From a virus (lineage: Duplodnaviria; Caudoviricetes), in IMG/VR virus record IMGVR_UViG_3300037484_000235, positions 64,001-128,000 of that record: 64,000 nt of DNA, one strand, 5' to 3'. The notes beneath the pieces are model-generated. The model ran no database searches. It had not been told where the DNA came from and saw nothing but the letters and a program-made list of their open reading frames with translations. Below are positions 37,976 through 45,679 of this stretch, piece after piece. The translations under genes were made by a program, and so were the position numbers. Every line of letters starts with the position of its first letter. Position 1 is the stretch's first letter.

Positions 37976-38188
37976 ATGTCGATTTTTCTGGACAGCCCTC
38001 AAGAAGTCATCCAAGCTCCCATCCAGGTCAGAACAGCTACCGCAGCAGACGCCATGAAACCATCGTTCCAAATAAAGCCCACGCATTCGTATCCAGCGAC
38101 CTCGCTGAATACAATGGTGTGGTGCGCCTTGTCCGCAGAAGGATTCTCAGATAGCATTGAGAACCTCCGTCAGGGTACCACCGGGTGA
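37976..38188 (+). CDS. hypothetical protein
   Basis: 70-aa ORF after GTGTAAGG motif. Confidence 0.4.
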   Translation: MSIFLDSPQEVIQAPIQVRTATAADAMKPSFQIKPTHSYPATSLNTMVWCALSAEGFSDSIENLRQGTTG

Positions 38189-38219
38189 ACTAGAACTACA
38201 TCTACCATAGATGAGAACT

Positions 38220-38251
38220 AGGCCACCCAGCGGAAGCAGGGTGGCCTTTTT
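38220..38251 (+). terminator. intrinsic terminator
   Basis: AGGCCACCC/GGGTGGCCT stem followed by T-run. Confidence 0.75.
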
Positions 38252-38285
38252 CGTTCCATGGGTCGAAAATCAAATCTCTCCGAAT

Positions 38286-38293
38286 CGTGTAAA
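38286..38293 (+). promoter_or_regulatory. CGTGTAAA promoter-like motif heading the tRNA array
   Basis: recurrent motif about 43 nt upstream of the first tRNA. Confidence 0.55.
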
Positions 38294-38335
38294 GGGTCTA
38301 CAGCCAATCGTTACCAAGCAGAAGTTCAACTCCAT

Positions 38336-38420
38336 GGATCAGACGTAGCACTGGGAGCTACACCGGCCTGTAACACCGGCGCCTTCGGGCAAGTAGGTTC
38401 GATTCCTACCTGATCCACCA
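38336..38420 (+). tRNA. tRNA-Tyr(GTA)
   Basis: loop CT-GTA-AC, long V arm, T loop, CCA. Confidence 0.9.
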
Positions 38421-38506
38421 ACCACTACAACCCACGTTCCCTACAGAAATACGAGGCATCGATGATCAGCGACATTCCAAAAACCAGCGGTTCCGTGTTT
38501 CTATAC

Positions 38507-38581
38507 GGGATCGTAGCTCAGCGGTAGAGCAGACGGCTTTTAACCGTACGGTCGAGGGTTCAATCCCCTCCGATCCCACCA
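38507..38581 (+). tRNA. tRNA-Lys(TTT)
   Basis: loop CT-TTT-AA, CCA. Confidence 0.92.
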
Positions 38582-38604
38582 GGAGATGTCAGGTTCACGT
38601 TCAT

Positions 38605-38680
38605 GCTGCGGTAGCTCAGCTGGAAGAGCATTCGGCCCTTACCCGAAACGTCATGGGTTCGACCCCCATCCGCAGCACCA
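38605..38680 (+). tRNA. tRNA-Lys(CTT), C33 variant
   Basis: loop CC-CTT-AC, CCA. Confidence 0.8.
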
Positions 38681-38706
38681 AGCTCTAGTTCGGTTCGTGT
38701 TTCGAT

Positions 38707-38777
38707 TCGGGAATCGTCCAATGGCAGGACAGCGGCCTCTGACGCCGTGAATAGGAGTTCGACTCTCTTTTCCCGAA
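38707..38777 (+). tRNA. tRNA-Gln(CTG)
   Basis: loop CT-CTG-AC; no encoded CCA. Confidence 0.85.
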
Positions 38778-38904
38778 CTGCTGACTGGGTCTCTGACAAC
38801 TGAATAGGATTCCTTCAGGCGGTCCACCGAGGCCGCAGGATCAGGACTCGTCCGAGCGTTCAAGCCATCTTCATGGCGCGCTCGGACGAGGGCCTGTCCA
38901 CTTT

Positions 38905-38980
38905 TCCAGGGTAGCTCAGTGGAAGTAGCGTCCGGCTGTTAACCGGATGGTCGCAGGTTCGATCCCTGCCCCTGGAGCCA
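38905..38980 (+). tRNA. tRNA-Asn(GTT)
   Basis: loop CT-GTT-AA, CCA. Confidence 0.92.
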
Positions 38981-39047
38981 AGACGAATGCTCGGTCGGGA
39001 GTACATCAATCTTCGATACCCCCTCTCGGCCACTAAAATTGTCGTCT
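38981..39047 (+). ncRNA. minimal Y-RNA-like hairpin
   Basis: outer stem AGACGA/TCGTCT; GACGAATG; inner stem GGTCGGGAG/CTCTCGGCC; UACAU loop. Confidence 0.6.
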
Positions 39048-39053
39048 GTCTTT

Positions 39054-39125
39054 AGGTCGGATGCCGTGGCGGCAAACGAGATTCCAACACTCGTGGACAG
39101 GGTTCGATTCCTTGCCGACCTGCCG
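39054..39125 (+). tRNA. atypical tRNA-Trp(CCA), short D arm
   Basis: A1-U72, G73, loop centred on CCA, canonical T arm, ends GCCG. Confidence 0.6.
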
Positions 39126-39170
39126 CGTGGTGACCGAAAGGGACTCTTACCGGGGTCTCGGCTTTGGTTG

Positions 39171-39235
39171 CTCGTAGGGCGAATGCCGCTGAGAACTACA
39201 TTCTCCAAATCAGAAGGGCTTGCCGGAAGGCTGGC
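39171..39235 (+). ncRNA. minimal Y-RNA-like element
   Basis: GGCGAATG at 39178-85; CTGA/TCAG helix; ACTACAT loop. Confidence 0.45.
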
Positions 39236-39286
39236 TCGGGTCGTCGCAAGACGGCCACTGTTTTCAGCACTCTTGTCGCTCGAAAT

Positions 39287-39360
39287 GCCTCATGATGCGC
39301 TTGGAGCGCAGCCTCTCTGTCTAAGAGGTGAAGCCGGTTCGATTCCGACATGGGGCGCCA
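39287..39360 (+). tRNA. atypical tRNA-Asp(GTC), U37
   Basis: loop CT-GTC-TA, G73, CCA, odd D arm. Confidence 0.7.
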
Positions 39361-39516
39361 AGATTTCGTCGGACGCCAATCCGATTGGGCCTTAGACCAC
39401 GACCCTTGGCGGGGTGAAACAGCACGCAGGGCTCACTGCCCTGTTGTCCGAGATGGTCGCTCGGTGGTTGGGTGTAACAGCCCGCGCCATGATGTAAAGG
39501 GCCCGAGATCTTGACT

Positions 39517-39592
39517 GCCATCCAAGCTAATCTGGTGAAAGCGCCGGTCTGAAGAATCGGAGAGCCTGGATCAAAACCAGGGGATGGCACCA
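39517..39592 (+). tRNA. tRNA-Phe(GAA), variant T loop ATCAAAA
   Basis: loop CT-GAA-GA, ACCA. Confidence 0.8.
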
Positions 39593-39593
39593 T

Positions 39594-39679
39594 GCGTTGG
39601 TCGTCTAAATGCCGTAAAGACGCTAGGCACTGATCCGGATCGGTGCCTGGAAATGCAGTCTCGCAAACTGCACGACGCA
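39594..39679 (+). ncRNA. anticodon-less cloverleaf RNA
   Basis: acceptor, D arm, 12-bp arm with CCGG loop, T-like arm with 9-nt loop. Confidence 0.5.
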
Positions 39680-39685
39680 GAAAAT

Positions 39686-39760
39686 GTCCTGTTCGGCTAA
39701 CGGAAGGCCCTCTGACCCTCAATCAGATGACGGTGGGTTCAACTCCCCCATGGGACGCCA
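39686..39760 (+). tRNA. tRNA-Glu(CTC), C33 variant
   Basis: loop CC-CTC-AA, GCCA. Confidence 0.85.
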
Positions 39761-39762
39761 AT

Positions 39763-39837
39763 GCACTCGTAGCTCAGTGGAAGAGCTTCCGGCTTCGAAC
39801 CGGATGGCCGGGGGTTCAAATCCCTCCGGGTGCGCCA
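39763..39837 (+). tRNA. tRNA-Arg(TCG)
   Basis: loop CT-TCG-AA, CCA. Confidence 0.9.
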
Positions 39838-39849
39838 GTAGTGATCGAT

Positions 39850-39922
39850 GTCTTTGTAGCTCAGTGGATAGAGCAGGCGTTTCCTAAACGCAAGATCGGA
39901 GGTTCGATCCCTCCCAAAGACG
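39850..39922 (+). tRNA. tRNA-Arg(CCT)
   Basis: loop TT-CCT-AA; ends GCTA. Confidence 0.9.
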
Positions 39923-39925
39923 CTA

Positions 39926-40057
39926 GGGCAGATGCGGTGAGGACTACATAACAGGAACTCGGGGTCGCTGGTTCAAGTCCAGCCTGCCATCCTGGATGGC
40001 AGTAGCTCAGTCTGGTAGAGCACGAGTAAAAACCAATCTTCGCTAACCTTGCTGCCC
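39926..40057 (+). ncRNA. yrlA: YrlA-type Y RNA (circularly permuted class I tRNA module)
   Basis: order AC-3' strand, V loop GGGTC, T arm, loop-closed acceptor, D arm, AC-5' strand; outer GGGCAG/CTGCCC. Confidence 0.85.
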
Positions 40058-40066
40058 GAACTTTAT

Positions 40067-40142
40067 GGTGGCTGTAGCACAACGGTAGTGCGCCCGGCTG
40101 TGAACCGGGTTACGGAGGGTTCAACTCCCCCCAGTCACCCCA
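40067..40142 (+). tRNA. tRNA-His(GTG) with G-1
   Basis: loop CT-GTG-AA, C73, CCA. Confidence 0.92.
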
Positions 40143-40149
40143 GATGTAT

Positions 40150-40224
40150 TGGCTCGTAGCTCAACGGGAGAGCACCCGGCTGATAACCGGGAGGTCGTGG
40201 GTTCGACTCCCACTGGGCCAACCA
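40150..40224 (+). tRNA. tRNA-Ile(GAT)
   Basis: loop CT-GAT-AA, CCA. Confidence 0.92.
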
Positions 40225-40233
40225 GTTCGTTTG

Positions 40234-40306
40234 TGCGATGCGGCGGGGACGCCGTCCAGGCCTCATAAGCCAGGAATGCCAGGTTCAACTCCTGGGATCG
40301 CAACCA
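40234..40306 (+). tRNA. atypical tRNA(CAT), Met or Ile2
   Basis: loop CT-CAT-AA, short D loop, ACCA. Confidence 0.65.
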
Positions 40307-40312
40307 AGTGAT

Positions 40313-40387
40313 TGCCCTGTAGCTCAACGGAAGAGCGCTGTCTCGACAAGGCAGAGGCCGTGGGTTCAACTCCCACTAGGGCAACCA
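40313..40387 (+). tRNA. tRNA-Val(GAC), C33 variant
   Basis: loop TC-GAC-AA, ACCA. Confidence 0.85.
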
Positions 40388-40391
40388 ACGA

Positions 40392-40462
40392 TGTTCTGTC
40401 TAGTTGGAAGGGGGCCCTAATCGCGAGGGGCCGCGCAGGTTCAAGTCCTGCCAGAGCAGCCA
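40392..40462 (+). ncRNA. tRNA-like RNA without a valid anticodon loop
   Basis: acceptor TGTTCTG/CAGAGCA, canonical T arm, GCCA; D arm degenerate, loop AATCGCG. Confidence 0.55.
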
Positions 40463-40528
40463 AGCTCGCCTACCATGTGTGGGTGGAGTAACGGGGTCGT
40501 GTCCTCACGGGGACGGCCCCAGCTTTAT

Positions 40529-40603
40529 CGCGGGATGGAGAAGTGGTATCTCGTCGGGCTCATAACCCGGAGAACGCCGGTTCAAATCCGGCTCCCGCAA
40601 CCA
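40529..40603 (+). tRNA. initiator tRNA-fMet(CAT)
   Basis: C1:A72 mismatch, three G-C pairs in the anticodon stem, CCA. Confidence 0.92.
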
Positions 40604-40606
40604 AAT

Positions 40607-40683
40607 GGGGTCGTAGCTCAGTTGGGAGAAGCGCCTGCATCGCAAGCAGGAGGTCGTGAGTTCAAATCTCACCGATTCCACCA
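40607..40683 (+). tRNA. tRNA-Ala(CGC)
   Basis: G3-U70, loop AT-CGC-AA, ACCA. Confidence 0.9.
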
Positions 40684-40740
40684 TGTTTTAATAGTGGTTG
40701 ACTTACCATACTGAATGGTTCAACCTTCACCGTATCCACC

Positions 40741-41322
40741 ATGCTAGACACAGATCACCCTGAGGAAATTGTTTCCTCATCTTGGGATGGCCGTCCTCGA
40801 AGACTTGTTGCCAATCTTTGTGGTCATTGTCATGGCAGGTTCTTTGCCCCGAGACACACAACTGCAAAGTTCTGTTCTAAGACATGCTCCGACGAGTCAC
40901 AGAAGAACAAGACCGTTCTTGTTTGTGCCCAATGTAAAAGGTCTTTTGAGCGTGTTCCCAGTACCTTGAAGAACTCCCGGAGTGGGGTGAGATTCTGTCA
41001 GAGATCCTGTAAGGATGAGGCTCAAAGACTTGAGGGTCTCAAGGCCATACACCCTTCTCACTACGGGAGTGACATCACCCACAAGAAAGCTCTGATTAGG
41101 GATAGGGGACACAAGTGCGAGGTGTGTGGTTTCTCTCGGTGGCAAGGCAAGCCAATATCTCTGCACGTCGATCATGTCGACGGAAACCCTTATGACCACT
41201 CCCTAAGCAACCTTCGATTGATCTGTCCAAACTGTCATACCCAGACGCCAACTTATGGCGGCAGGAATAGAGGAAGGGGGAGAAAGTCGCGAAAGCTTCC
41301 GGATTGGAGTGACGTGAGGTGA
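40741..41322 (+). CDS. HNH endonuclease with N-terminal treble-clef Zn motifs
   Basis: CEVCG..W.G..ISLHVDHVDG...D....NLRLICPNCH.QT.TY. Confidence 0.9.
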   Translation: MLDTDHPEEIVSSSWDGRPRRLVANLCGHCHGRFFAPRHTTAKFCSKTCSDESQKNKTVLVCAQCKRSFERVPSTLKNSRSGVRFCQRSCKDEAQRLEGLKAIHPSHYGSDITHKKALIRDRGHKCEVCGFSRWQGKPISLHVDHVDGNPYDHSLSNLRLICPNCHTQTPTYGGRNRGRGRKSRKLPDWSDVR

Positions 41323-41334
41323 TGGGGTGTTTTT

Positions 41335-41407
41335 CGGGGTGTAGCTCAAATGGGAGAGCTTTGGCGAACAGCCAAAGATCAGGGTTCGAATCCCTGCTAC
41401 CCGGCCA
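41335..41407 (+). ncRNA. tRNA-like RNA with 5-nt anticodon loop (GAACA)
   Basis: canonical D and T arms, GCCA end, two acceptor mismatches. Confidence 0.6.
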
Positions 41408-41541
41408 GTGTTGTGGAAATACTCGATGGGGATTACATTACCTGCTAAGTAATCGATCTGGGTTCGACTCCCAGGCGCTCCCGTAAGGGGGCGAGCCAGG
41501 GGCTAGAAAAACATCTCTGTCATCACTTGTTTCACAGCACT
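41407..41541 (+). ncRNA. permuted tRNA-mimic Y-like RNA retaining a GCU anticodon arm
   Basis: 12-bp outer stem; GATTACAT; AC arm, T arm, GTAA-closed acceptor, D-like hairpin. Confidence 0.7.
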
Positions 41542-41551
41542 ACTTCTTTTC

Positions 41552-41692
41552 GTGGTGAATACCGCAGTGACTACATGGAAAACGGTTGCCGAAAGGCGTG
41601 TGGGCTTCGATACCCACCTCAGCCTCGCAAGGGCTGAGTGGCGGAATGGCAGACGCGACTGCAAATGTCACTGTGACCCCTCTTGTCACCAC
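41552..41692 (+). ncRNA. permuted tRNA-Leu-like (class II) Y-like RNA
   Basis: V arm GCCGAAAGGC, T arm, closed acceptor, Leu D arm; outer stems of 9 and 7 bp; GACTACAT. Confidence 0.8.
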
Positions 41693-41833
41693 ACTAACTT
41701 CGCATGGGCCCTACGGGGTCCATGTGCAGACGGGTCTCGTAGGTCGCGCCAGGCCCTACGAGCTGGAAGATAGGGGACGCCACCCGCGAAAGCGATCAGC
41801 GGCCCCGAGTCCTGTCCGTGTTCCTGGTATTCT

Positions 41834-41906
41834 GGGGCTGTAGCTCAGTTGGGAGAGCGTCTCCATGGCATGGAGAAGGTCAAGGGTTCGATTCCCTTCA
41901 GCTCCA
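41834..41906 (+). tRNA. tRNA-Ala(GGC)
   Basis: loop AT-GGC-AT; ends ACCG. Confidence 0.9.
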
Positions 41907-41907
41907 C

Positions 41908-42053
41908 CGTAAGGGTAGTTCAAGTTGCGGTCGCGTACCGCACGGGGACGTAGGACAACCACAAGTCTGTGCACAGGTCGGTGGGAAGATCACGCGACGT
42001 GAGAGCTGCCTTCCAATAGAAGGTGAACGCAGGCGGAAACCCTGCCCCTTACG
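41908..42053 (+). ncRNA. expanded tRNA-like RNA
   Basis: 8-bp closing stem CGTAAGGG/CCCTTACG; T-like arm GCAGG-CGGAAAC-CCTGC. Confidence 0.4.
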
Positions 42054-42589: not shown

Positions 42590-42643
42590 GGTTGAATGCC
42601 ACGTCGGGAGTACATCCCTATACGATAAACCCTCTCGACAACC
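42590..42643 (+). ncRNA. minimal Y-RNA-like hairpin (paralog of 38981-39047)
   Basis: GTTGAATGC..GTCGGGAGTACATC..CGATA..CTCTCGAC. Confidence 0.6.
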
Positions 42644-42680
42644 GTGCAGACTAGTGCTGCACACCTTGTCAACCTTTCAC

Positions 42681-45419: not shown

Positions 45420-45614
45420 GTGATGATCGACTTCAATGCAGAGTACAGGCATCGACGGAAGGGTTTCCGTGTGATCGTAGGGGAGCCCGCTTGGTGGGAC
45501 ACCATGGAAGCTAACCGGGTTGTGGTCTACAAGTTGGGGGCCATGTCTGGACCTCTGCACTGGGTGATGAAACGATCGTCGTTCGAGCGGTTGTACGAAG
45601 TCATGCGCGCGTAA
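45420..45614 (+). CDS. DUF1653-like small protein
   Basis: YRH.RKG.RV; VVVYK; WV.KRSSF. Confidence 0.6.
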   Translation: MMIDFNAEYRHRRKGFRVIVGEPAWWDTMEANRVVVYKLGAMSGPLHWVMKRSSFERLYEVMRA

Positions 45615-45679
45615 CTCAGTGGAAGAGTGTCTCCTTTACACGGAGAATGTCGGGGGTTCGATCCCCTCCGCGCGTACCA
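45605..45679 (+). tRNA. tRNA-Val(TAC)
   Basis: loop TT-TAC-AC, ACCA. Confidence 0.92.

What the first reader, a model, noticed from the sequence alone, without database searches (positions are those of the whole stretch)
39926..40057. Canonical YrlA-type circularly permuted tRNA mimic
Arm order: ACTCG (39957-61), GGGTC, T arm GCTGG-TTCAAGT-CCAGC, acceptor CTGCCATC-CTG-GATGGCAG closed by a loop, TA, D arm GCTC-AGTCTGGTA-GAGC, A, CGAGT. CGAGT pairs perfectly with ACTCG, and the whole sits in an outer GGGCAG/CTGCCC stem. This is the YrlA effector architecture, 9.6 kb from the Ro60 gene rather than adjacent to it.
Basis: partly seen in the sequence, partly recalled or inferred. Interest (0 to 1): 0.72.

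Follow-up and report, generated by a model that had tools for sequence, protein, structure and literature searches.

The report
Phage Y RNA inside a tRNA array
The flagged stretch is a real YrlA-type Y RNA (a small RNA with a stem expected to bind Ro60 and a tRNA-shaped head) carried by a huge uncultivated phage. This kind of RNA is already known from bacteria and phages; what is unusual here is that the gene sits wedged between two tRNA genes, 9.6 kb from the phage's Ro60 gene.

Summary

Rfam YrlA (RF02553) matches it over the full model at 59 bits. That is E 7e-14 over the whole 252 kb phage record, but below Rfam's gathering score of 69, so a standard annotation run does not list it.

Eighteen homologues from related large phages keep all six helices: 94.8% of cells are paired, 31 of 35 pairs show compensatory changes, and slid controls give about 43%.

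The gene lies between tRNA-Arg(CCU), which has no encoded CCA and ends 1 nt before it, and tRNA-His, which starts 9 nt after it. Four close relatives keep this synteny, so the RNA is probably cut out of a tRNA precursor by tRNA-processing enzymes (inferred).

An intact Ro60 gene (49692-51359) lies on the same strand, also inside the 46-tRNA array.

Five further Y-like RNAs in the array share the same outer-stem module. Cultured Myxococcus phage Mx1 has the same layout.

Phage YrlAs were reported in 2014 and a phage Ro60-Y RNA complex in 2025, so I call this a new, divergent member of a known kind. Binding, expression and RNA ends are untested. The other first-reader notes on this genome cover the same DNA, not other DNA.

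The parts
39850..39923 (+). tRNA-Arg(CCU) directly upstream. It has no encoded CCA, and its discriminator G (39922) lies 2-3 nt before the Y RNA.
   Evidence: ARAGORN; Rfam tRNA 63.5 bits; 3' ends listed; same junction in relatives
39925..40058 (+). YrlA-type Y RNA gene, whole element
   Evidence: RF02553 59 bits, full length; lineage model R1 115 bits; covariation
39926..39931 (+). P1 5' strand GGGCAG (outer stem, closing the putative Ro60-binding module)
   Evidence: helix 1: all 7 pairs covary, 96% paired
40052..40057 (+). P1 3' strand CTGCCC, preceded by the conserved CUUG box at 40048-40051
39932..39935 (+). Conserved AUGC internal-loop box
   Evidence: matches the Rfam consensus AUGC; conserved in alignments
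39936..39943 (+). P2 5' strand GGTGAGGA, followed by the invariant CUACAU box at 39944-39949
   Evidence: TACA invariant; helix 2: all 8 pairs covary
40037..40044 (+). P2 3' strand TCTTCGCT
39957..39961 (+). Anticodon-stem-like helix, 5' strand in the RNA (equivalent to the 3' strand of a tRNA anticodon stem)
   Evidence: helix 3
39962..39983 (+). Variable-loop equivalent GGGTC plus T arm (GCTGG-TTCAAGT-CCAGC)
   Evidence: helix 4, 100% paired
39984..40002 (+). Closed acceptor-stem hairpin, 8 bp with a CUG loop
   Evidence: helix 5: all 6 modelled pairs covary, 98% paired
40003..40022 (+). U8-A9 equivalents, D arm (GCTC-AGTCTGGTA-GAGC) and the A26 equivalent
   Evidence: helix 6
40023..40027 (+). 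Anticodon-stem-like helix, 3' strand in the RNA (CGAGT)
40068..40142 (+). tRNA-His(GUG) starting 9 nt after the Y RNA. RNase P cleavage at its 5' end would set the Y RNA 3' end (inferred).
   Evidence: conserved synteny
49692..51359 (+). Ro60 (Rsr) gene, 555 aa, intact, inside the same tRNA array
   Evidence: Pfam; D. radiodurans Rsr 2nvo at 1e-20 and phage phiLo Ro60 9kop/9l5y at 7e-19
38981..39047 (+). Minimal Y-like RNA. It shares the P1/AUGC/P2/UACAU/UUGUC module and has no tRNA-like head.
   Evidence: fold; descriptor scan
39177..39281 (+). Y-like RNA with a three-hairpin head that is not tRNA-like
   Evidence: R1 26.8 bits; fold z -2.65
41412..41536 (+). Divergent YrlA-like RNA with T arm and closed acceptor hairpin but a degenerate D arm
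   Evidence: R1 39.4 bits; fold z -3.2
41552..41692 (+). Divergent YrlA-like RNA with T arm, closed acceptor hairpin and a D arm of the class-II tRNA type
   Evidence: R1 46.3 bits
42590..42674 (+). Short Y-like RNA sharing the same outer module
   Evidence: fold z -3.05

Best explanation
Window 39925-40058 (+) encodes a YrlA-type bacterial/phage Y RNA.

What the RNA looks like: its 5' and 3' ends pair into a two-stem module. This is P1, an AUGC / CUUG internal loop, P2 and a CUACAU box, and it matches the Ro60-binding end of known YrlA RNAs. Its apical part is a circularly permuted tRNA core: T arm, closed acceptor stem and D arm. The nucleotides that build the tRNA elbow are all present (U8, A14, G15-C48, G18 G19, U54 U55 C56, A58, G53-C61).

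How it is probably made (inferred): it has no promoter of its own. It is transcribed as part of the phage's 46-tRNA array and released by tRNA processing. Cleavage just after the discriminator of the CCA-less tRNA-Arg(CCU) makes its 5' end. RNase P cleavage at the 5' end of tRNA-His leaves it with a 3' tail of about 9 nt.

What it probably does (inferred by analogy with D. radiodurans, Salmonella and Thermus phage phiLo): the mature RNA binds the phage's own Ro60 ring, encoded 9.6 kb downstream in the same array. It then acts as a gate or tether. The tRNA-like head would couple Ro60 to host PNPase or another tRNA-recognising partner for degradation or surveillance of structured RNAs during infection, plausibly the phage's own large tRNA pool.
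For: Identity (shown):
- RF02553 aligns over positions 1-114 of 114 at 59 bits, E 7.1e-14 for the whole genome. All other hits score 20.7 bits or less and are tRNAs.
- The minimum-energy fold gives the same six helices.

Conservation (shown):
- 11 of 15 related phage records found through Ro60 carry full-length homologues. The four without are fragments of 24 kb or less.
- In 18 aligned homologues 94.8% of cells pair, against 67.7% in shuffles and about 43% when the partners are slid. 31 of 35 pairs change on both sides.
- The window's own GA-to-AG swap in P1 is compensated on the 3' strand.

Context (shown):
- An intact Ro60 gene lies on the same strand. The homologues seen in the Ro60-oriented loci of 9 related records are all on the Ro60 strand.
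- The order tRNA-Arg(CCU, no CCA), a 1-2 nt gap, YrlA, 9-11 nt, tRNA-His is conserved in the window, G002, G005 and G006. G003 has the same order but with the Y RNA directly abutting its tRNA-Arg.
- No promoter-like or terminator-like site flanks the element.
- The phage has a CCA-adding-type nucleotidyltransferase.

From the literature:
- YrlA RNAs bind Rsr, carry tRNA modifications, and the M. smegmatis YrlA with a 7-bp acceptor stem is cut by RNase P and receives CCA (PMC4201824).
- Phage phiLo Ro60 binds two phage Y-like RNAs and host PNPase (PMC12135203).
Against: - The score is below Rfam's gathering cut-off (59 against 69), as for all 15 relatives.
- The GNCGAAN0-1G motif is not met letter for letter.
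- Distance to Ro60 is 9.6 kb, not within 4 kb.
- Folding energy is not better than shuffles (z -1.23).
- No PNPase or RNase PH domain and no RtcB were found in the recovered 57% of the genome, so any nuclease partner would have to be the host's.
- The covariation alignment was fitted to the model structure, which favours that structure.
Confidence: 0.8

Rival explanations
1. It is a tRNA-like element that works independently of Ro60. It could be a processing or punctuation signal for the tRNA array. Or it could be a decoy that soaks up host proteins recognising the tRNA elbow or acceptor stem, such as defence nucleases or modification enzymes.
For: - It is embedded in a tRNA array and abuts tRNAs on both sides.
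- Its tRNA core nucleotides are intact.
- It is 9.6 kb from Ro60, and in one relative (G009) about 46 kb away.
Against: - The outer P1/AUGC/P2/CUACAU/CUUG module, which has nothing to do with tRNA, is the most conserved part. It is shared with five other elements that lack a tRNA-like head.
- All homologue-bearing records were found through a Ro60 gene, and in the 9 records with Ro60-oriented loci every homologue is on the Ro60 strand.
- It has no anticodon loop, so it cannot be a decoy for anticodon nucleases.
Confidence: 0.1
2. It is a false positive of the YrlA model: the T arm of one tRNA and the D arm of the next (a tRNA dimer), or a decayed remnant of two tRNA genes.
For: Chen et al. 2014 warn that tandem tRNAs can score as YrlA (PMC4201824). 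This array produces many such weak hits at 10-21 bits.
Against: - The element does not overlap any tRNA call.
- The T and D arms are joined by a perfect 8-bp hairpin with a 3-nt loop.
- The score is 38 bits above the best tRNA-dimer hit.
- All helices, including the non-tRNA P1 and P2, covary across 18 homologues.
Confidence: 0.03
3. It is a circularly permuted tRNA gene that matures into a working tRNA through a circular intermediate, as in the red alga Cyanidioschyzon. This could fill the missing tRNA-Ser.
For: - The 3' half precedes the 5' half.
- No tRNA-Ser is found in the 252 kb record.
Against: - There is no anticodon loop. The anticodon-like stem opens into the conserved P2/P1 module instead.
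- The D arm and variable loop are class I, not the class II type expected for tRNA-Ser.
- The acceptor ends are closed by a 3-nt loop with no CCA.
Confidence: 0.02

Closest known systems
YrlA (Rfam RF02553), Y RNA-like A of Salmonella Typhimurium, Mycobacterium smegmatis and 22 phages (Chen et al. 2014, PMC4201824)
   Same: - Same two-module architecture: a terminal stem module matching the Ro60-binding end, plus a permuted tRNA-like domain in the order T arm, closed acceptor stem, D arm.
- Full-length match to the model.
- Same strand as Ro60.
- An acceptor stem of 7 bp or more, as in M. smegmatis YrlA.
   Different: - Scores below the Rfam gathering cut-off.
- The GNCGAA motif is altered to GGCAGA, with compensation on the other strand.
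- Insertions of 12 and 6 nt in the junction loops.
- 9.6 kb from Ro60, against the 4 kb limit used in that paper.
- Wedged between tRNA genes inside a 46-tRNA array rather than next to rsr.
- That paper discarded hits overlapping tandem tRNA genes and reported only hits within 4 kb of Ro60. This locus fails the distance criterion.
Yrl1/Yrl2 of Thermus phage phiLo with phage Ro60 (PMC12135203; PDB 9KOP, 9L5Y)
   Same: - A phage-encoded Ro60 together with more than one phage-encoded Y-like RNA.
- The phage lacks PNPase, so a host PNPase partner is expected.
- The window's Ro60 matches phiLo Ro60 at E 7e-19.
   Different: - The phiLo RNAs lie directly upstream of the Ro60 gene. The paper describes them as stem-bulge-stem RNAs with a CGAA motif, not as tRNA mimics.
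- Here there are six Y-like RNAs, spread over 3.7 kb of a tRNA array.
Deinococcus radiodurans Yrn1 / Rsr / PNPase (RYPER)
   Same: The presumed mode of action: the Y RNA binds the outside of the Ro60 ring and tethers it to PNPase (as summarised in PMC4201824). The window's Ro60 matches Rsr 2nvo at E 1e-20.
   Different: Yrn1 has its T- and D-like arms in a different orientation and is thought to have evolved independently (PMC4201824). No PNPase gene is present in this phage record.
Myxococcus phage Mx1 (OR576727.2), unannotated locus
   Same: - Closest cultured relative by Ro60, at 45% identity.
- A homologous YrlA-like RNA scoring 63 bits with R1 lies in its tRNA array. It is 11.6 kb upstream of its TROVE gene and is followed 4 nt later by a tRNA.
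   Different: More divergent: RF02553 gives no hit at E 1e-4 or better. Neither RNA is annotated, and a second Y-like element overlaps a CDS annotated as a hypothetical protein.

Membership tests
YrlA (RF02553) | Score at or above Rfam's curated gathering threshold (69 bits) | tested here: not met
   59 bits. This is an operational cut-off. The E-value is 7e-14 for the genome and the match is full length. None of the 15 related phage records reaches the cut-off either.
YrlA (RF02553) | All model helices present: terminal stem, second stem, junction stem, T arm, closed acceptor stem and D arm, in that permuted order | tested here: met
   Alignment covers positions 1-114 of 114, with only two non-standard pairs marked. 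The minimum-energy fold agrees. Covariation supports every helix.
YrlA (RF02553) | tRNA-core nucleotides that allow the D-loop/T-loop elbow (U8, A14, G18 G19, U54 U55 C56, A58, G53-C61) | tested here: met
   Read directly from the sequence; positions assigned by textbook tRNA numbering.
YrlA (RF02553) | GNCGAAN0-1G motif near the 5' end (Chen et al. 2014) | tested here: not met
   The window reads GGCAGAUG, which differs at two of eight positions. Both changes are compensated in P1. At the two P1 pairs covering that GA, 15 and 17 of the 18 homologues keep the commonest pair (G-C and A-U), and the window is the lone G-C at the second.
YrlA (RF02553) | Encoded on the same strand as a Ro60 gene and within 4 kb of it (criterion of Chen et al. 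2014) | tested here: inconclusive
   Same strand: met. Distance: 9.6 kb, so not met. In relatives the distance ranges from 0.3 to about 46 kb.
YrlA (RF02553) | Bound by Ro60/Rsr in vivo | not testable with these tools
   Needs immunoprecipitation or gel-shift assays.
YrlA (RF02553) | [quoted passage not shown] | not testable with these tools
   Only the target nucleotides and an acceptor stem of 7 bp or more can be seen.
Permuted tRNA gene (Cyanidioschyzon type) | Both halves together contain a complete anticodon arm with a 7-nt loop | tested here: not met
   The anticodon-like stem opens into P2/P1 and there is no loop. ARAGORN calls no tRNA here.

The most novel reading that the evidence does not exclude
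This lineage of large phages, which includes cultured Myxococcus phage Mx1, may run a tRNA-punctuated Y RNA battery. Six different Y RNAs share one outer-stem module but carry different heads: one canonical tRNA mimic, two divergent mimics and three non-tRNA heads. All would be transcribed within the tRNA array and cut out by RNase P and tRNA 3'-end processing. They would then programme a single phage Ro60 for different partners or substrates, for example surveillance of the phage's own 46 tRNAs or capture of host PNPase. Neither Y RNA biogenesis coupled to tRNA processing nor so large a Y RNA set turned up in the papers I could search.
Probability: 0.35. Interest if true: 0.7.

Novelty: new member of a known kind. 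Interest (0 to 1): 0.45.

Why it matters
YrlA RNAs and phage Ro60 are already known, so the element itself is not a surprise. Three points still matter.

1. Annotation gap. This whole phage subfamily scores below Rfam's cut-off, so a default Rfam scan does not list it. This locus also lies beyond the 4 kb distance from Ro60 that the founding survey required. Y RNAs in phage tRNA arrays are therefore likely under-counted.

2. Biogenesis. The conserved junctions with flanking tRNAs give a concrete, testable route for making a Y RNA through RNase P and tRNA 3'-end processing.

3. Function and tractability. Ro60, a tRNA-mimicking Y RNA and a full tRNA set sit in one transcription unit. This ties the unresolved question of why bacterial Y RNAs mimic tRNA to tRNA metabolism. 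Phage Mx1 on Myxococcus offers a culturable system to test it.

Tried and rejected
- Rfam at gathering thresholds lists only tRNAs. The YrlA hit appears only with an E-value threshold.
- Megablast of 38000-42000 against GenBank phages found no match.
- MAFFT alignments A1 and A2 mis-registered the 5' strand, so RNAalifold recovered only the tRNA-like helices. I solved this by building model R1 from eight equal-register seeds with a hand-checked structure.
- Folding energy against shuffles is not significant for the element.
- I looked for a parent tRNA in the array. No isoacceptor stands out; Thr, Ala, Lys and Pro score alike, so recent derivation from a neighbouring tRNA is not supported.
- A 7-nt match between the acceptor hairpin and tRNA-Phe has the wrong polarity for descent, so I dismissed it as chance.
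- RtcB and RNase PH/PNPase domains are absent from the 252 kb record, which is estimated 57% complete.
- The supplementary tables of Chen et al. 2014 and two reviews are not held.
- The pattern scan of viral contigs gave mostly chance matches. Only 7 of the 80 loci returned hold R1-type YrlAs, and one of those is the already known G006 record.
- RF02553 does not detect the Mx1 or mycobacteriophage Essence loci at E 1e-4 or better in a 41 kb search.
- Complex prediction was not used because it does not take RNA.

Full report
**Where the window comes from.** The window is bases 64001-128000 of a 252.5 kb IMG/VR virus record, estimated 57% complete, so it comes from a very large uncultivated phage. 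Between 38336 and 52928 it carries 46 tRNA genes, all on the + strand (40 of them also pass Rfam's tRNA threshold). HNH endonuclease genes are interspersed among them.

**Checking the observation.**
- ACTCG at 39957-39961, pairing with CGAGT at 40023-40027
- a five-base variable-loop equivalent
- a T arm GCTGG-TTCAAGT-CCAGC
- an 8-bp hairpin CTGCCATC-CTG-GATGGCAG in the place of the acceptor stem
- TA
- a D arm GCTC-AGTCTGGTA-GAGC
- A
- an outer stem GGGCAG/CTGCCC at 39926-39931 and 40052-40057

An unconstrained fold gives the same helices. It adds an 8-bp second stem (39936-43 with 40037-44) between the outer stem and the tRNA-like part. The folding energy is not unusual (z -1.23), so stability alone proves nothing.

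**Is it beyond chance, and is it YrlA?**
- Rfam's default thresholds report nothing here.
- With an E-value threshold, the YrlA model RF02553 aligns over its whole length (1-114 of 114) at 59 bits. That is E 2.7e-13 locally and 7.1e-14 for the 252 kb genome. The gathering score is 69.
- The next-best hits in the genome score 20.7 bits or less. They are tRNAs or tRNA pairs.
- The shortfall comes from two insertions (12 and 6 nt) in the junction loops and a longer acceptor hairpin.
- The conserved boxes of the outer module are present: AUGC, ACUAC(A) and CUUG.
- The GNCGAAN0-1G motif of Chen et al. 2014 (PMC4201824) reads GGCAGAUG here. The GA-to-AG change is matched by UC-to-CU on the 3' strand, so the helix is kept.

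**Homologues and covariation.**
- The Ro60 protein (window 49692-51359) retrieved 15 related IMG/VR loci at 42-83% identity.
- 11 of those 15 records hold a full-length RF02553 match, none above the gathering score. The four without a match are fragments of 24 kb or less.
- Single-sequence folds of 16 homologues mostly give the same architecture.
- I built a lineage model, R1, from eight seeds with a hand-checked structure. It recovers ten further non-seed homologues at 72-98 bits.
- On the 18-sequence alignment, 94.8% of cells are standard pairs, against 67.7% in shuffles and 40-46% when partners are slid. 31 of 35 pairs show changes on both sides, and every helix covaries, including P1 and P2.
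- That alignment is fitted to the model, which favours the structure, but the margin is very large.
- A pattern scan of viral contigs followed by R1 added six more contigs of up to 424 kb.

**Genomic context.**
- Ro60 is an intact 555-aa ORF on the same strand, 9.6 kb downstream. It starts 38 nt after tRNA-Gly(GCC), so it too lies inside the array.
- It matches Pfam vWA_Ro60 and TROVE, D. radiodurans Rsr 2nvo at 1e-20 and Thermus phage phiLo Ro60 at 7e-19.
- The Y RNA starts 1 nt after the ARAGORN end of tRNA-Arg(CCU), 2-3 nt after that tRNA's discriminator. This is one of the minority of tRNAs in the array with no encoded CCA. The Y RNA ends 9 nt before tRNA-His(GUG).
- The same order and spacing recur in relatives G002, G005 and G006: tRNA-Arg(CCU) without CCA, a 1-2 nt gap, YrlA, 9-11 nt, tRNA-His. 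G003 has the same order, but its Y RNA directly abuts the tRNA-Arg.
- Other relatives have a different tRNA close by on one or both sides. G014 has tRNAs 0 and 2 nt away, and G015 and G009 have a tRNA 3-4 nt downstream.
- No sigma-70-like promoter or intrinsic terminator flanks the element.
- From this I infer, but have not shown, that the RNA is co-transcribed with the tRNAs and cut out by tRNA 3'-end processing and RNase P.
- The phage encodes a CCA-adding-type nucleotidyltransferase. It has no RtcB and no PNPase/RNase PH domain in the recovered part.
- Distance to Ro60 in relatives ranges from 0.3 kb to about 46 kb. In the Ro60-oriented loci of 9 related records, all homologues are on the Ro60 strand.

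**How it probably works.** Published work underlies the mechanism:
- YrlA and Yrn1 bind the Ro60 ring and tether it to PNPase.
- Salmonella YrlA is modified by TruB and DusA.
- M. smegmatis YrlA, which has a 7-bp acceptor stem, is cleaved by RNase P and receives CCA (PMC4201824).
- Thermus phage phiLo Ro60 binds two phage Y-like RNAs and assembles with host PNPase (PMC12135203).

By analogy, I propose that this RNA binds the phage Ro60 through P1, the internal loop and P2, and presents a tRNA-shaped head to a host partner. Because its acceptor hairpin has 8 bp (7 or more in almost all homologues), RNase P opening with CCA addition is possible but speculative.

**Rival readings.**
- tRNA-dimer artefact. 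Excluded by the lack of overlap with tRNA calls, the closed 3-nt loop, the 38-bit margin over dimer hits, and covariation of the non-tRNA stems.
- Permuted true tRNA gene. Excluded by the absence of an anticodon loop.
- Ro60-independent decoy or processing signal. This cannot be excluded. It is disfavoured because the non-tRNA module is the best conserved part and the element co-occurs with Ro60.

**Beyond the finding.**
- R1 found two more full-length, divergent Y-like RNAs in tandem at 41412-41536 and 41552-41692.
- Prompted by an earlier first-reader note, I folded three more elements at 38981-39047, 39177-39281 and 42590-42674. They share the same outer module.
- A descriptor for that module finds exactly these six in the whole genome on both strands, against 0.1 expected. 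The descriptor was written after seeing them, so only the absence of other hits and the null rate are informative.
- Four of the six start 0-4 nt after a tRNA, and four end 5-9 nt before one.
- Relatives also carry several such elements upstream of Ro60.
- Myxococcus phage Mx1 has the closest cultured Ro60 (45% identity). It has an unannotated YrlA-like RNA (63 bits with R1) in its tRNA array, 11.6 kb upstream of its TROVE gene, and a second Y-like element under an annotated hypothetical CDS.

**Novelty.**
- YrlA RNAs in 254 bacteria and 22 phages (PMC4201824) and a phage Ro60-Y RNA complex (PMC12135203) are published. A jumbo-phage survey notes TROVE proteins with a tRNA-like partner (PMC7824862).
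- The element is therefore a new, divergent member of a known kind.
- I found no paper in the searchable library describing Y RNAs embedded in phage tRNA arrays or released by tRNA processing. Two reviews were not available.
- Interest is moderate. The class is known, but the conserved tRNA junctions, the six-member set and the culturable relative make a testable story.

Noticed in passing
window 41412-41536 and 41552-41692 (+): Two tandem, divergent YrlA-like RNAs (R1 39 and 46 bits) that RF02553 misses. The first has a degenerate D arm. The second has a D arm of the class-II tRNA type (GGCGGAAUGGCAGACGC).
   Followed up: partly
window 38981-39047, 39177-39281, 42590-42674 (+): Three shorter Y-like RNAs with the same P1/AUGC/P2/UACAU/UUGUC module but no tRNA-like head. 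With the three above (including the flagged element), that makes six in 3.7 kb of the array.
   Followed up: partly
window 51360-51473 (+), just after Ro60: Very stable long hairpin (-56 kcal/mol, z -6.4) with GUCGAAG in its apical junction. It could be another Y RNA or a terminator-like element.
   Followed up: partly
window 49440-49578 (+), just before tRNA-Gly and Ro60: Long imperfect stem with a branched tip (z -4.1); unannotated.
   Followed up: no
window 41693-41833 (+): A GC-rich 140-nt spacer after the tandem Y-like RNAs folds into several hairpins (-60 kcal/mol, z -1.9). There is no Rfam match.
   Followed up: no
whole record G000: ARAGORN finds 46 tRNAs and one tmRNA but no tRNA-Ser, while relatives G007, G009, G014 and G015 carry tRNA-Ser genes in their arrays. 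Several spacers of 100-160 nt in the array remain unexplained.
   Followed up: partly
window 40741-41322, 46417-46947, 47580-47966 (+): HNH endonuclease ORFs interspersed in the tRNA array, as in phage Mx1. They are likely homing elements.
   Followed up: no
L062 607-710 (Myxococcus phage Mx1 OR576727.2, about 45521-45624): A Y-like RNA (R1 35.5 bits) overlaps the annotated CDS WNM70101.1 'hypothetical protein'. That CDS is probably a mis-annotated RNA gene. The record also has unannotated tRNAs and a tmRNA (L062 1732-2109) under annotated CDSs.
   Followed up: partly
L096 6483-7028 (IMGVR_UViG_3300006056_000001, 190 kb): Four YrlA-like genes in direct tandem (R1 56-99 bits).
   Followed up: no
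L025 2609-3017 (relative G004): A phage-encoded tmRNA (tag ANSNSYVPAAMAA) lies in the same tRNA array, a few hundred bases downstream of the tandem YrlAs.
   Followed up: no
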